Shown here one piece after another: positions 19,156-50,300 of a DNA stretch of 61,315 bases (position 1 is its first letter; each line of letters opens with the position of its first letter). The notes beneath the pieces were generated by a model that saw only the letters and a program-made list of their open reading frames with translations, was not told where the DNA came from and searched no databases. This DNA comes from Acidimicrobiales bacterium (GTDB lineage: Bacteria > Actinomycetota > Acidimicrobiia > Acidimicrobiales > JAUJNH01), in NCBI GenBank assembly GCA_038232515.1, contig JBBSHS010000002.1, forward strand, positions 1-61,315, given 5' to 3'. The position numbers and the translations under genes were made by a program.

Positions 19156-19180
19156 GCGCCGGCCGCCCGGCGGCCGGCGC
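19156..19180 (+). terminator. GC hairpin after moeA (11-bp perfect stem GCGCCGGCCGC/GCGGCCGGCGC, loop CCG)
   Basis: Begins 9 nt after the stop. No U-tract (actinobacterial I-shaped type). Confidence 0.45.
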
Positions 19181-19252
19181 GAGATTGGGTGGCCACGTGG
19201 CCTTCCCGGGCCATCCGGGCCGCTGAAGGCCACCGCCCGACCCAATCTCGCG
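19178..19252. repeat. repeat family 3, copy 3A (nested imperfect palindrome)
   Basis: CGCGAGATTGGGT-N6-GTGGCCTTC-N19-GAAGGCCAC-N6-ACCCAATCTCGCG. Confidence 0.85.
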
Positions 19253-21694: not shown

Positions 21695-21770
21695 GGGGGT
21701 GTAGCTCAGTCGGCAGAGCACTTCGTTCGCAACGAAGGGGTCGGCGGTTCGAATCCGCTCACCTCCACCA
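21695..21770 (+). tRNA. tRNA-Ala (anticodon CGC), CCA encoded
   Basis: GGGGGTGTAGCTCAGTCGGCAGAGCACTTCGTTCGCAACGAAGGGGTCGGCGGTTCGAATCCGCTCACCTCCACCA. Has the G3:U70 identity pair, anticodon loop TTCGCAA and T-loop GGTTCGAATCC. Confidence 0.95.
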
Positions 21771-24021: not shown

Positions 24022-24033
24022 GGAACGATAGTG

Positions 24034-24278
24034 CCGGGGCTTCGCCCCCGCCCGACGAGGCGGTCAGGTCATCCTTCGGCCTACCAGCGGCGATGTTCTT
24101 CACCCGCACCGTACGGGGGCATCCTGCGTTCGTGGGCTGGCCGTCATCCTCGAACCCGACCCGGCCCTCCCACACCGCTACGCCATCAGTTTCGACAAAC
24201 TCGAAGCGGGCATCACTGACCTTGTCGGCGCGGCGCGGAACTTGGCTCAATCGTGTCGGTTCCTAGGCAAGCGCCTAG
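24034..24278 (+). repeat. repeat family 1, copy A
   Basis: Aligns with 28026-28258 and 50051-50300. 5' hairpin GGGGC-TTC-GCCCC at 24036-24048. 3' hairpin CTAGGC-aagc-GCCTAG at 24263-24278. Flanked by TAGTGCCGG at 24029-24037 and 24276-24284. Confidence 0.9.
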
Positions 24279-24287
24279 TGCCGGCTT

Positions 24288-27955: not shown

Positions 27956-28025
27956 TGGCGAGCCGTCGTCCACTACGGGGCGGGTGGTGCGGATGGCAGC
28001 GCCCATGCCTGGCGCCAAGCTCCTA

Positions 28026-28258
28026 ACGGGGCTTCGCCCCCGCCCGACGAGCACGTCATCCCAGGGGCTACGAGCGGCGATGTTCTTCACCCGCACCATG
28101 AGCACAGTCGCCCTGCGTTCGTCGGGGCCGTCACCCTCGAACCCGACCCGCCCCTCCCGAAACGCTGGTTCGACAAACTTGGAGCGGCCTCACCGGCCTT
28201 GCCGACGCCGCATGGAACTTCAGTCAATCGTATCGGCTCCTAGGAGCCAAGCTCCTAG
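28026..28258 (+). repeat. repeat family 1, copy B
   Basis: 5' hairpin at 28028-28040. 3' hairpin CTAGGAGC-caa-GCTCCTAG at 28240-28258. Flanked by GCCAAGCTCCTA at 28014-28025 and 28246-28257. Confidence 0.9.
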
Positions 28259-28261
28259 CCT
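28256..28261 (+). promoter_or_regulatory. -10-like box TAGCCT, 8 nt before the glmS ATG (leaderless candidate)
   Basis: TANNNT hexamer, no Shine-Dalgarno sequence. Overlaps the right-hand direct repeat of family-1 copy B. Confidence 0.4.
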
Positions 28262-43071: not shown

Positions 43072-43076
43072 CCGCC

Positions 43077-43147
43077 CGAGATTGGTTCCAGCCGTGGCCT
43101 TCGCGGCCGAAAATCGACGCTGAAGGCCACCAGGCGACCCAATCTCG
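43077..43147. repeat. repeat family 3, copy 3B
   Basis: CGAGATTGGTT-N6-GTGGCCTTC-N19-GAAGGCCAC-N6-ACCCAATCTCG. Starts 6 nt after the guaA stop. Confidence 0.85.
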
Positions 43148-43201
43148 AGATGTCGAGACCGTTGGGCCGGCGCATCCGGCGAGGGCGACCGGGGTGGCCG
43201 G

Positions 43202-45921: not shown

Positions 45922-45935
45922 CGTCGGGCACCCTA

Positions 45936-46001
45936 CCGGGGCTTCGCCCCCGCCGGACGAGCAGGTCAGTGTTAGGGCCTACGAGTGGCCCTTCGTGGCC
46001 T
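45936..46001 (+). repeat. repeat family 1, short/degenerate copy D
   Basis: CCGGGGCTTCGCCCCCGCCGGACGAGCAGGTCAG matches the 5' end of family 1. Similarity then decays, and the copy ends in GGCCTAG. Confidence 0.5.
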
Positions 46002-46201
46002 AGACCACCGGCTGGCCGGCGCCGCCGAAGCCGCCGGCCCGGCCACCGCCACACTCGGCCAAGGCTTTCCGCCCCGAAAGCGCTGCCCCATCAGTGAGCC
46101 TGCCGCAGATCTGCCCCGCATTGAACGAATCTGAACCGTCCTGGACCGTGCCGAGGCAGAGCCGCACGGGACGTCCTGGTCGGTAACGCCGGACAACCGC
46201 C

Positions 46202-48924: not shown

Positions 48925-48999
48925 CGCGAGATTGGGTCCCAGCGTGGCCTTCACCGCCGATTTTGACCGGTGAAGGCCACCACACCACCCAATCTCGCG
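48925..48999. repeat. repeat family 3, copy 3C (central loop inverted relative to 3B)
   Basis: CGCGAGATTGGGT-N6-GTGGCCTTC-N20-GAAGGCCAC-N6-ACCCAATCTCGCG. Starts 11 nt after the sucD stop. Confidence 0.85.
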
Positions 49000-50043: not shown

Positions 50044-50050
50044 GGGGCTA

Positions 50051-50300
50051 CCGGGGCTTCGCCCCGCCCGACGAGCGGTCAGGTCATCCTTCGGCCTACT
50101 AGCGGCGATGTTCTTCACCGCACCCTGCGGGGCATCCCGCGTTCGTGGGATGGCCGCCATCCTCGAACCCGACGCAGCCGTCCACGCCGGCTACGCGGTC
50201 AGTTCGACAAGCTCGAAGCGGCCATCACTCACCATGTCGGCGCGGCGCGGAACTTGACTCCATCGTGTCAGCTTCTAGGCGCCCAAGCGCCTTGGGCGCC
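50051..50300 (+). repeat. repeat family 1, copy C
   Basis: 5' hairpin at 50053-50065. 3' hairpin GGCGCCCAAG-cgc-CTTGGGCGCC at 50278-50300. Starts 8 nt after the amidase stop. Confidence 0.9.

What the first reader, a model, noticed from the sequence alone, without database searches (positions are those of the whole stretch)
24029..24284. Family 1: a co-oriented, non-coding interspersed element of about 230-250 nt without terminal inverted repeats
Three stretches align almost base-for-base on the + strand: 24034-24278, 28026-28258 and 50051-50300. A short fourth copy lies at 45936-46001.

Shared blocks are GGGGCTTCGCCCC(C)GCCCGACGAG, AGCGGCGATGTTCTTCACC(C)GCACC, CTGCGTTCGTGGG, GCCGTCATCCTCGAACCCGAC, TTCGACAAACTCGAAGCGG, GGAACTT, CAATCGTGTC and a terminal (T/C)TC(C)TAGG.

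- All copies are intergenic and all point the same way. The flanking genes are on the minus strand at copy A (ilvA and a small ORF) and on the plus strand at copies B and C (glmM/glmS, amidase/purN).
- Copies A and C differ by several 1-2 nt indels, so no reading frame survives on either strand.
- The two ends are not inverted repeats of each other. Instead there is an invariant 5' hairpin (GGGGC-TTC-GCCCC) and a 3' hairpin.

I do not recognise the sequence as any RNA family I know. It is not a glmS ribozyme, riboswitch, tmRNA, RNase P or SRP RNA.

Working hypotheses are a non-autonomous, TIR-less mobile element (for example an IS200/IS605-type PATE-like element, or something retro-mobile) or a mobile structured-RNA gene. 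Four copies in 26 kb of otherwise core genome is a striking density.
Basis: seen in the sequence. Interest (0 to 1): 0.78.

Follow-up and report, generated by a model that had tools for sequence, protein, structure and literature searches.

The report
Mini-copies of an uncatalogued mobile element
The four repeats are short, gene-less leftovers of a widespread 1.8-kb jumping element that no database lists as mobile, and whose only protein is predicted to fold like a plasmid rolling-circle replication nuclease rather than like any known transposase.

Summary
There are three co-oriented copies of 232-244 nt (A 24035-24278, B 28027-28258, C 50052-50294) and one 67-nt mini-copy (D 45937-46003).

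They are not RNA genes and not IS200/IS605 derivatives. They are internal-deletion, MITE-like derivatives of a roughly 1.75-1.9 kb single-gene element. Each keeps the first ~28 nt of the left end and the last ~200 nt, which is the decayed C-terminal coding part plus the right end.

The full element reads flank-CTA(A>G)|CGGGGCTTCGCCCCAGCCCGACGAG ... 534-aa ORF ... AACTTGACTC ... hairpin ... CTAG|flank. It has no terminal inverted repeats and no target duplication. Head-to-tail tandems occur.

It is found at many unrelated sites in Actinomycetota and on Burkholderia, Rhodococcus and Mycobacterium plasmids, always annotated 'hypothetical protein'. The protein family is large (15,305 clusters at 50% identity) and has no Pfam or NCBIfam transposase match.

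A confident AlphaFold model (pLDDT 85.6) shows an N-terminal TBP-like double beta-sheet. Its best solved match is the Rep_trans rolling-circle initiator RepSTK1, followed by a MarR-like winged helix. An invariant K-x-Y-x-K strand mirrors the R-x-Y-x-K catalytic motif of Rep_trans.

My best reading is a new IS family that uses a Rep_trans-like tyrosine nuclease and moves by a single-strand or rolling-circle route. The derivation is shown. The chemistry is inferred.

The parts
24035..24278 (+). Copy A, 244 nt. Left-end hairpin GGGGC-TTC-GCCCC at 24036-24048, then the GCCCGACGAG box. Decayed ORF remnant at about 24065-24238. AACTTGGCTCA box at 24239-24249. Terminal hairpin CTAGGC-AAGC-GCCTAG at 24263-24278.
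   Evidence: nhmmer. blastn against the full-length L022 element maps A 1-28 to element 1-28 and A 31-150 to element 1581-1698. tblastn detects the coding remnant.
28027..28258 (+). Copy B, 232 nt. It is preceded by CTAA (28023-28026) and ends in the hairpin CTAGGAGC-CAA-GCTCCTAG (28240-28258), 11 nt before the glmS ATG.
28011..28026 (+). A right-end-like terminus, GGCGCCAAGCTCCTAA, lies immediately upstream of copy B. Twelve of its bases are identical to B's own 3' terminus. It is either the target, or the relic of an earlier copy into whose end B inserted.
   Evidence: Read directly from the sequence. Left flanks of many insertions resemble the right-end terminus.
50052..50294 (+). Copy C, 243 nt. 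It is preceded by CTAC (50048-50051) and starts 9 nt after the Amidase_3 stop codon. The terminal CTAG has mutated to CTTG, so this copy is probably immobile.
45937..46003 (+). Copy D, a 67-nt mini-copy. It has the same left end and the same deletion junction as A-C, followed by GGCC-CTTCGT-GGCC and a terminal CTAG. It is preceded by CTAC (45933-45936).
24029..24034 (+). Atypical left junction of copy A: TAGTGC instead of CTAN. The 9-mer TAGTGCCGG recurs at 24276-24284, across the right junction. This is unexplained.
   Evidence: Read directly from the sequence.

Best explanation
The four repeats are non-autonomous, internally deleted descendants of one ancestral deletion of a roughly 1.8-kb single-gene mobile element. 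That element is widespread but is not catalogued as an insertion sequence.

The parent has asymmetric ends.
- Left end: it starts CGGGGCTTCGCCCCAGCCCGACGAG, a 5-bp hairpin plus a box, directly after a flanking CTA(A>G).
- Interior: a 5' UTR of about 120-170 nt and a 534-aa ORF.
- Right end: an AACTTGACTC box, one or two small hairpins, and a terminal CTAG.

There are no terminal inverted repeats and no target duplication.

The protein has an N-terminal TBP-like two-module beta-sheet domain of the kind found in Rep_trans rolling-circle initiators and relaxases, followed by a MarR-like winged helix.

I infer the following mechanism. The protein is a metal-dependent tyrosine nuclease, with Y327 in an invariant K-x-Y-x-K strand as the candidate nucleophile. 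It nicks one strand next to the end hairpins, after CTAR. It releases or copies the top strand as a circle whose junction reads CTAG|CGGGG. It then pastes that strand 3' of a CTAA or CTAG in the target.

The window copies keep only the cis sites, roughly 28 nt of the left end and the right end. They can therefore move only when a full-length copy elsewhere in the genome supplies the protein.

What is shown:
- the derivation from the ORF-bearing element;
- the exact ends, and the many independent insertion sites;
- the absence of terminal inverted repeats and target duplications;
- the predicted fold.

What is inferred:
- that the protein is the transposase;
- the tyrosine chemistry;
- the single-strand or rolling-circle route;
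- the exact cleavage phase.
For: Derivation from a longer element:
- In L022, L045 and L096 the 5' motif and the 3' ~200 nt are separated by about 1.6 kb that holds one ORF.
- The window copies map to element positions 1-28 and about 1581-1808. They retain recognisable C-terminal codons.
- A, B, C and D share one deletion junction.

Mobility:
- Half of 112 genomic hits to the 5' motif have the ORF about 150 nt downstream, and many sit at contig ends.
- The identical protein P0027 sits behind at least 7 different left flanks, and P0022 behind 8, with sequence identity stopping exactly at CTAA|CGGGG and at CTAG|.
- The same element occurs at three different sites on Burkholderia, Paraburkholderia and Caballeronia plasmids.
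- L091 carries a head-to-tail tandem with junction CTAG|CGGGG.
- Other genomes have their own left-end-plus-right-end mini derivatives of 100-270 nt.

Target:
- Across 107 left flanks, C, T and A at positions -4 to -2 each exceed 92%. Position -1 is A in 79% and G in 16%. Position -8 is A in 71%.
- An IS end ...GTAGTACTAG is unoccupied in L313 and L314 and occupied in L312.

Hairpin covariation at the left end:
- GGGGC/GCCCC in most copies, GGGGT/ACCCC in the P0027 element, GAGGC/GCCTC in the Burkholderia and M. riyadhense copies.

Protein:
- More than 8,000 clusters at 90% identity, all 'hypothetical protein', typically on contigs of about 1.9 kb.
- 15,305 clusters at 50% identity.
- No Pfam, NCBIfam or PHROG family match.
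- AlphaFold model with pLDDT 85.6.
- The best Foldseek PDB hit is the Rep_trans initiator RepSTK1 (4cij, E 2e-3, probability 0.98), followed by TBPs and MarR regulators.
- The best BFVD hit, A0A2N9QVX7, is the same TBP-fold protein that the archaeal Rep-Arvir initiator hits. Rep-Arvir has the same layout of TBP-like domain plus MarR-like wHTH (PMC13107129).
- D23, E114, E253, K325, Y327, R335 and D345 are invariant in alignment A3; K329 and E337 are nearly invariant there (90% or more). All lie on predicted strands of the sheet or immediately after one, in the case of D345.
- Rep_trans uses R-x-Y-x-K plus three carboxylates, each on a separate strand, and nicks at a conserved hairpin (PMC4797284).
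Against: - The similarity to Rep_trans and Rep-Arvir is structural only and borderline. Foldseek E-values are 2e-3 and 2e-4, with TM-scores of 0.2-0.36.
- Profile-profile comparisons with DUF7845 and with RepC are not significant. Pfam PF02486 and PF25227 do not match.
- I could not inspect model coordinates, so clustering of the candidate catalytic residues is untested.
- No circle junction, empty site at the same locus, or biochemical result is available.
- It is unresolved whether the fourth base of the left CTAN belongs to the target or to the element (against 112).
- Copy A has an atypical left junction.
- No full-length copy lies in the window, and the host genome is not in the collections. 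Whether these copies are still mobilisable is therefore unknown.
- Four copies in one orientation has only a 1-in-8 chance probability, which is weak evidence.
Confidence: 0.68

Rival explanations
1. The elements are IS200/IS605-type PATEs, or TnpB/omega-RNA relics: non-autonomous elements mobilised by a Y1 HUH TnpA.
For: Same-strand subterminal hairpins, no terminal inverted repeats, no target duplication, and insertion next to a fixed tetranucleotide. These are the hallmarks of IS200/IS605.
Against: The master copies encode a single 534-aa protein with no match to Y1_Tnp, OrfB_IS605 or any NCBIfam IS model. Its predicted fold is a TBP-like double sheet, not an HUH/RRM or RuvC fold. Rfam finds no omega-RNA-like family.
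Confidence: 0.03
2. The parent is a cut-and-paste or site-specific element that uses double-stranded DNA. One version is insertion into CTAG with a TA or CTA duplication, as in IS630. Another is core-sequence recombination, as in IS110 or IS607, possibly guided by an RNA from the conserved 5' UTR. On this reading the TBP-like protein is a new recombinase rather than a Rep-like nickase.
For: CTA is present on both sides of every insertion. Targets resemble the junction of right end and left end: left flanks look like the right-end terminus and several right flanks start with CGG. The 120-170-nt 5' UTR is conserved. L023 and L062, and the IS630-like ends, suggest the fourth base travels with the element.
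Against: There are no terminal inverted repeats. No DDE, DEDD, tyrosine- or serine-recombinase domain is present. The mini-copies lack the UTR yet were amplified, although an RNA could in principle act in trans. Tandem head-to-tail copies and duplicated terminal modules are typical of rolling-circle read-through. The best structural relative is a nicking Rep protein.
Confidence: 0.17
3. The 1.8-kb unit is primarily a tiny rolling-circle replicon (plasmid or satellite) that integrates occasionally. On this reading the window copies are decayed integrated replicons rather than transposon derivatives.
For: The fold is Rep_trans-like, and the layout of hairpin plus conserved nick-like site resembles a double-strand origin. 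Many contigs are about 1.8-2.1 kb long.
Against: The short contigs carry non-overlapping chromosomal flanks on both sides, not a circular permutation. Copies sit inside megabase chromosomal contigs and large plasmids at many sites. Amplified mini derivatives made only of the two ends are transposon behaviour.
Confidence: 0.07
4. The repeats are genes or cis-elements for a structured RNA, for example a riboswitch-like leader. The 5' end weakly resembles the guanidine-III aptamer.
For: There is a weak Rfam hit (RF01763) of 13.2 bits against a gathering threshold of 36. Copy A folds slightly better than shuffled sequence, z = -2.3.
Against: No Rfam family reaches threshold. The covariation term of the A/B/C consensus fold is unfavourable, +4.9 kcal/mol. 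Copy B has z = -1.6. The interior is homologous to protein-coding sequence. The flanking genes are unrelated and lie on both strands.
Confidence: 0.03

Closest known systems
Rep_trans rolling-circle initiators and MOBT relaxases (PF02486: RepC/RepD of pT181-family plasmids, RepSTK1, CTXphi RstA, Tn916/ICESt3 relaxases)
   Same: The predicted catalytic domain is a TBP-like beta-sheet of two pseudo-symmetric modules, and the best PDB match is RepSTK1. An invariant basic-x-Tyr-x-Lys motif lies on a strand, an R-x-E motif on the next strand, and invariant carboxylates on separate strands (compared). A helix-turn-helix-type DNA-binding domain lies C-terminal of the catalytic domain. The DNA site is a family-wide conserved hairpin next to the break point, with variable sequence beside it, like ICRII and ICRIII.
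   Different: There is no detectable sequence or profile similarity. The protein is about 200 aa longer. It is encoded in a 1.8-kb unit that is integrated at many chromosomal sites with defined ends and gives rise to mini-copies. Rep_trans proteins are known from plasmids, filamentous phages and conjugative elements, not from insertion sequences (PMC13107129; literature searches).
Rep-Arvir / RepSNJ2 (DUF7845, PF25227) of archaeal pleolipoviruses and plasmids
   Same: The size is the same (about 540 aa). The architecture is the same: an N-terminal TBP-like domain of about 300 aa, a MarR-like wHTH and a helical tail. The top BFVD structural neighbour, A0A2N9QVX7, is the same. The relationship to Rep_trans is visible only by structure. 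A DNA hairpin acts as the cis site.
   Different: hhalign gives no similarity. The Tyr context differs (KHYYM against KQYHK). Rep-Arvir is archaeal, this family is bacterial. Rep-Arvir is described as a replication initiator of viruses and plasmids, not as the enzyme of an IS-like element.
IS91/ISCR and IS200/IS605 (HUH single-strand or rolling-circle insertion sequences) and their non-autonomous derivatives (PATEs)
   Same: Asymmetric ends with hairpins, no terminal inverted repeats, no target duplication, insertion next to a specific tetranucleotide, tandem or read-through products, and short derivatives made only of the ends.
   Different: The enzyme has no HUH motif-bearing domain and a different predicted fold. 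The end sequences and the target (CTAR) are different.
MITEs
   Same: Short, non-coding, multi-copy, derived from an autonomous element by internal deletion, and dependent on a transposase supplied in trans.
   Different: Classical MITEs have terminal inverted repeats and target duplications. These have neither.

Membership tests
Non-autonomous (MITE-like) derivative of an autonomous element | Shares both termini with a longer, protein-coding element | tested here: met
   Window copies map to positions 1-28 and about 1581-1808 of the 1808-nt L022 element.
Non-autonomous (MITE-like) derivative of an autonomous element | Has no intact transposase gene of its own | tested here: met
   Only 12-17 residue remnants are detected by tblastn, and frames are broken by indels.
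Non-autonomous (MITE-like) derivative of an autonomous element | Presence/absence polymorphism at orthologous sites | tested here: inconclusive
   The nearest genomes share only 79% GlmS identity. Their glmM-glmS spacer lacks the element but cannot be aligned base for base. Exact-pattern scans for this subfamily found nothing.
Classical MITE | Terminal inverted repeats and a target-site duplication | tested here: not met
   The ends are not inverted repeats. Nothing is duplicated beyond the shared CTA.
IS200/IS605 (and PATEs) | Master copy encodes Y1 HUH TnpA and/or TnpB | tested here: not met
   No Pfam or NCBIfam match in 23 members scanned.
IS200/IS605 (and PATEs) | Same-strand subterminal hairpins, no inverted repeats or duplication, insertion 3' of a fixed tetranucleotide | tested here: met
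   This shows the element works like an IS200/IS605 member, not that it is one.
IS91/ISCR/Helitron | Y2 HUH transposase | tested here: not met
   No Y2_Tnp, Zn_Tnp_IS91 or NCBIfam IS91 match.
Rep_trans superfamily | Match to PF02486, or profile-profile similarity to RepC/RepD | tested here: not met
   hmmscan of 22 members found nothing. hhalign against the RepC alignment gave probability 0.14.
Rep_trans superfamily | TBP-like catalytic fold: two pseudo-symmetric five-strand modules | tested here: met
   In the pLDDT 85.6 model, two beta-alpha-beta4-alpha halves span residues 15-186 and 246-377. Foldseek finds 4cij RepSTK1 at probability 0.98, E 2e-3, then TBPs. BFVD returns TBP-fold hits at E 2e-4. 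TM-scores are low (0.2-0.36), so support is moderate.
Rep_trans superfamily | Catalytic Tyr in R/K-x-Y-x-K on a strand, plus three carboxylate metal ligands on separate strands | tested here: inconclusive
   K325 and Y327 are invariant and K329 nearly invariant, on predicted strand 322-329. R335 (invariant) and E337 (nearly invariant) lie on strand 333-340. D23, E114 and E253 are invariant on other strands. Their spatial clustering could not be checked.
Rep_trans superfamily | Mg/Mn-dependent nicking at a hairpin with a covalent 5'-phosphotyrosine | not testable with these tools
   This needs biochemistry.
Rep-Arvir (DUF7845) | Match to PF25227, or profile similarity | tested here: not met
   HRPV-3 ORF9 matches PF25227 at 5e-115. 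Our family does not match it. hhalign probability is 0.3-0.5.
Rep-Arvir (DUF7845) | Architecture: TBP-like N-domain, MarR-like wHTH and C-terminal helices, about 540 aa | tested here: met
   compared with PMC13107129.
IS110/IS1111 | DEDD transposase | tested here: not met
IS630/Tc1 (CTAG/TA targets) | DDE_3 transposase, terminal inverted repeats, TA duplication | tested here: not met
   IS630-type elements appear only as neighbours or targets.
Any Rfam RNA family | Covariance-model score at or above the gathering threshold | tested here: not met
   Only a tRNA was found in the whole window. The best hit on the element is 13.2 bits against a threshold of 36.

The most novel reading that the evidence does not exclude
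The parent element defines a new class of prokaryotic insertion sequence. Its transposase is a non-HUH, TBP-fold (Rep_trans/Rep-Arvir superfamily) tyrosine nuclease that moves a single DNA strand by a rolling-circle or peel-and-paste route into CTAR sites. That would add an enzyme superfamily to the short list of known transposase chemistries. It would also link plasmid and virus Rep_trans initiators to transposons, in the way HUH Reps are linked to IS91, IS200 and Helitrons.
Probability: 0.5. Interest if true: 0.9.

Novelty: new variant of a known kind. Interest (0 to 1): 0.8.

Why it matters
A very large protein family (15,305 clusters at 50% identity across soil Actinomycetota, Burkholderiales plasmids and others) is annotated everywhere as 'hypothetical protein'. 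Yet it behaves as the sole gene of a mobile element with precise ends.

Recognising it would have three practical effects:
- It would correct genome annotation.
- It would explain many contig breaks in actinobacterial MAGs.
- It would explain short intergenic repeats such as the four in this window, which sit a few bases from the ends of core genes such as glmS, purN and the ilvA-like gene.

If the Rep_trans-like chemistry is confirmed, it would be the first transposon family found to use that nuclease superfamily. That would parallel the HUH story and give a compact, sequence-specific system of one protein and about 100 nt of cis DNA for moving single-stranded DNA.

Tried and rejected
- Rfam at gathering and at permissive thresholds found nothing relevant.
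- A genome-wide scan with the 18-mer GCGGCGATGTTCTTCACC returned 118 unrelated loci. None matched the element by nhmmer, so that scan was wasted.
- Two specific patterns for this mini-element subfamily gave zero hits in genome contigs and in metagenome contigs. Copy number outside the window and the direct parent remain unknown.
- Exact-protein look-ups of PurN and GlmS found no contig. The host genome is not in the collections. The closest GlmS has 79% identity and comes from Acidimicrobiia-like MAGs.
- The first AlphaFold run used a narrow alignment, gave pLDDT 65 and returned only wHTH hits. It was superseded by the run on the diverse alignment.
- PDB sequence-profile searches found only weak wHTH and uS2 noise.
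- PHROGs and tblastn against phages found nothing.
- hhalign against HRPV-3 ORF9, a DUF7845 alignment and a RepC alignment was not significant in any case.
- Searches for empty sites on plasmids, using joined flanks, found no true empty site for the Burkholderia copy. For the Rhodococcus copy they gave only an indirect comparison.
- I considered and rejected a 12-nt target duplication at copy B. Other copies show no such duplication, and the upstream 16-mer looks like a right-end terminus.
Full report
**The observation**

The three long repeats and the short one are real. A profile built from A, B and C finds only four + strand matches in the 61-kb window: 24030-24281, 28023-28260, 50048-50297 (E-values from 1e-69 to 6.5e-82) and 45933-45989 (E 8e-8). 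Excluding gaps the copies are 81-91% identical and differ by many indels.

All four lie between genes:
- A sits 9 nt beyond the stop codon of a PALP (IlvA-like) gene on the minus strand.
- B lies between glmM and glmS and ends 11 nt before the glmS ATG.
- C starts 9 nt after the Amidase_3 stop codon, upstream of purN.
- D lies 15 nt upstream of a DUF6941 gene.

Rfam finds nothing on them.

**Where they come from**

The 25-nt 5' motif CGGGGCTTCGCCCC(N)GCCSGACGAG occurs in more than 112 contigs of one-genome-per-species bacteria. Most are Actinomycetota, and the motif very often sits right at a contig end, which is the signature of a multi-copy repeat.

In three loci the profile matched the 3' two-thirds of the window element about 1.6 kb away from the 5' motif. 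The interval holds a single ORF of 534-548 aa. In 56 of the 112 loci this ORF follows the motif by about 150 nt.

Mapping the window copies onto the 1808-nt L022 element gives A 1-28 = element 1-28 and A 31-150 = element 1581-1698. B's tail corresponds to element 1754-1786. tblastn still reads FGLPAAMFFTRT and GLRAAMFFTRT in A and B, matching residues around 493-508 of the protein.

A, B, C and D share the same junction between the left end and the C-terminal coding region. One internal deletion of about 1.55 kb therefore happened once, and the deleted form was then copied to new sites. D is a further-shortened 67-nt version that keeps a terminal CTAG. No full-length copy lies in the window.

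**Anatomy of the parent element**

Twenty-four full-length copies and two sets of copies with identical proteins at 7-8 different sites each fix the ends to the base:

flank-CTA(A)|CGGGGCTTCGCCCCAGCCCGACGAG ... 5' UTR ... ATG ... stop ... AACTTGACTC(A) ... [CCGGCTTCGCCGG hairpin, in many lineages] ... C(A/T)AG-N3-4-CTAG|flank

- The ends are not inverted repeats of each other. Instead both carry a GGC-TTCG-CC-type hairpin on the same strand.
- Nothing is duplicated beyond the CTA present on both sides.
- L091 holds two copies head to tail with the junction CTAG|CGGGG.
- Some copies have the last 8-17 nt duplicated in tandem (L083, L312, L320).

The left-end hairpin covaries:
- GGGGC/GCCCC in most copies.
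- GGGGT/ACCCC in the P0027 element.
- GAGGC/GCCTC in Burkholderia, Paraburkholderia and Caballeronia plasmids and in M. riyadhense.

The plasmid copies sit at three different sites with the same CTAA| and CTAG| junctions.

Other genomes carry their own mini derivatives of 100-270 nt, made of a left end plus a right end. The right-end terminal hairpin of the window copies also changes compensatorily: CTAGGC..GCCTAG, CTAGGAGC..GCTCCTAG and CTAGGCGC..GCGCCT.

**Target**

Over 107 distinct left flanks, positions -4 to -2 are C, T and A in more than 92% of cases. Position -1 is A in 79% and G in 16%. Position -8 is A in 71%. Many left flanks look like a right-end terminus (C[AT]AG-NNN-CTA), as does the 16-mer upstream of window copy B.

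CTAG is eight-fold under-represented in the window (19 observed, 164 expected), and 7 of the 19 lie in the four copies. This scarcity fits the position of the insertions next to stop codons and gene ends.

In Rhodococcus plasmids an IS end ...GACTGTAGTACTAG is followed by ordinary flank in L313 and L314. In L312 it reads ...GTAGTACTAC|CGGGG...CTAG|TCGC.

Whether the fourth base of CTAN is target or element is not settled:
- The P0022 set (seven sites with A, one with G next to a right-end-like flank) and the tandem junction favour insertion 3' of CTAR, with the element being CGGGG...CTAG.
- L023 and L062 (both T) and the IS630-like ends favour a cut at CTA|N in a CTAG target.

**The protein**

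The protein has more than 8,000 relatives at the 90% cluster level. All are 'hypothetical protein', and their contigs are typically 1.8-2.1 kb. A profile search finds 15,305 clusters at 50% identity, 2,278 of them below E 1e-30.

On 28 plasmids of Rhodococcus, Burkholderia, Paraburkholderia, Caballeronia, Mycobacterium and Bradyrhizobium it is annotated 'hypothetical protein' or, once, 'ArsR family regulator'. Pfam, NCBIfam (which carries the models NCBI uses to name IS transposases) and PHROGs give no family. Only weak winged-helix hits appear near residues 440-510.

With a diverse alignment AlphaFold gives pLDDT 85.6. The model has two similar beta-alpha-beta4-alpha halves (residues 15-186 and 246-377), then a winged helix and long C-terminal helices.

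Foldseek results:
- PDB: the top hit is 4cij, the Rep_trans rolling-circle initiator RepSTK1 (E 2e-3, probability 0.98), followed by TATA-binding proteins and MarR regulators.
- BFVD: TBP-fold proteins, led by A0A2N9QVX7 (E 2.3e-4).

A 2026 paper on the archaeal initiator RepSNJ2 (Rep-Arvir, DUF7845) reports exactly this pattern. It had only wHTH hits in PDB, the same A0A2N9QVX7 in the viral library, a TBP-like N-domain plus a MarR-like wHTH, and a relationship to Rep_trans invisible at the sequence level. It validated the catalytic Tyr and the acidic residues by mutagenesis (PMC13107129).

Rep_trans enzymes carry the catalytic Tyr in R-x-Y-x-K on a strand, an R-x-E strand after it, and three carboxylates on separate strands. 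They nick a family-wide conserved hairpin (ICRII) next to a specificity repeat (PMC4797284).

In our family K325 and Y327 are invariant and K329 nearly invariant on predicted strand 322-329. R335 is invariant and E337 nearly invariant on strand 333-340. D23, E114, E253 and D345 are invariant, on other strands or, for D345, immediately after the last strand. The correspondence is by inspection. hhalign against DUF7845 and RepC is not significant, and I could not examine coordinates.

**Mechanism**

Shown:
- A single-gene unit with exact asymmetric ends is present at many unrelated sites.
- It forms head-to-tail tandems.
- It spawns derivatives made only of its ends.
- It lands next to CTAR without duplication.

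Inferred:
- The protein nicks the top strand beside the end hairpins, through Y327 and a bound metal.
- The strand between the left and right ends is displaced or copied and closed into a circle with the junction CTAG|CGGGG.
- The circle is reopened and joined into a nicked CTAR target.

This accounts for the lack of inverted repeats and duplications, for the resemblance of targets to the right-end terminus (one active site cleaving the same short motif), and for tandem and duplicated-terminus products (failure to terminate). It also accounts for the ability of about 28 nt of left end plus the right end to be mobilised in trans. The common orientation of the four window copies is compatible with strand-specific insertion but is weak evidence (chance probability 1 in 8).

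Copy C has lost its terminal CTAG, and the 9-19% divergence between copies suggests an old, probably quiescent family in this genome.

**Rivals**

- IS200/IS605 or another HUH element is excluded by the gene content.
- An RNA gene is excluded by the coding origin, the lack of covariation and the Rfam results.
- A double-strand recombinase or DDE-like mechanism with a CTA core remains possible (17%), because the cleavage phase is unresolved and the fold evidence is moderate.
- A tiny integrating replicon is unlikely, because the short contigs carry chromosomal flanks rather than circular permutations.

**Novelty**

I found no paper in the searchable library describing a transposon with a Rep_trans or TBP-fold enzyme. 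The 2026 paper states that Rep_trans proteins are known from plasmids, filamentous phages and conjugative transposons. ISfinder could not be queried.

I therefore file the window repeats as mini-copies of a new, uncatalogued IS family. That is a new variant of the known kind 'single-strand or rolling-circle IS plus non-autonomous derivatives'. I put about an even chance on it representing a new transposase class.

Noticed in passing
window 19178-19252, 43075-43149, 48925-48999: A second interspersed repeat family: a 75-nt nested palindrome with 13-nt inverted ends (CGCGAGATTGGGT ... ACCCAATCTCGCG) and an inner GTGGCCTTC/GAAGGCCAC stem. Copies are 73-79% identical (family D2). It looks REP- or MITE-like and is unrelated to the element studied here.
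   Followed up: no
L022 (- strand) about 6250-6180; L311 about 2905-2995; L325-L344 upstream of the ATG: Full-length elements carry a conserved 11-nt inverted repeat in the 5' UTR (GGCTCCGGTCG ... CGACCGGAGCC). Its 3' arm covers the GGAG just before the start codon. It probably occludes the ribosome-binding site against read-through transcripts. The window mini-copies lack it.
   Followed up: partly
Proteins P0391-P0510 (haloarchaeal DUF7845 / Rep-Arvir homologues): Many of these archaeal 'replication initiators' also lie on contigs of about 1.9-2.0 kb. One cluster (P0477) is seen on 42 contigs, some within chromosomes. They may also be the genes of IS-like elements.
   Followed up: no
window 24029-24037 and 24276-24284: The 9-mer TAGTGCCGG occurs at both junctions of copy A, overlapping the start of the left end and the end of the right end. 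Copy A alone lacks the CTAN left flank. The downstream flank (TGCCGGCTTTCACTCCTGGCCCGAC) also loosely resembles a left end.
   Followed up: partly
L312 4684-4703; L083 3' end; L320 downstream of the ORF: The last 8-17 nt of the right end (a small hairpin or spacer plus CTAG) is tandemly duplicated in some copies: CTAGCTAC twice, CTAGCCAT twice, and CGACCAAGGGTCG(G/C)TA(G/C) twice.
   Followed up: no
L327/L332 and L330/L334 (metagenome contigs): The same right flank is paired with different left flanks across samples. These are either assembly chimeras across the repeat or real one-ended events.
   Followed up: no
L312-L314, and L004, L020, L028, L056, L075, L089, L100, L112 left flanks: Insertions recur right after ...GGCTG(T/N)AGTACTA. 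In Rhodococcus this is the end of another IS that has a transposase gene upstream. In L326 a DDE_3 (IS630-type) gene is the upstream neighbour. IS ends seem to be favoured landing sites.
   Followed up: partly
window 24031-24073: The left end gives a 13-bit match to the guanidine-III riboswitch model through the shared CCGACGAGG string, far below the 36-bit threshold. I regard it as chance.
   Followed up: yes
alignment A3 against A6: The only local hhalign alignment with RepC is statistically insignificant. It pairs our LNG(H)EWAKRQ...F.ALDNGF with RepC EFNPNK...WLKQN...FTRLDLAFD, the segment that holds the metal ligand D142. This gives an alternative candidate, D195, for that ligand.
   Followed up: no
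window 21695-21767: A tRNA gene at 68 bits, 2.3 kb upstream of copy A. There is no evident link to the element.
   Followed up: no
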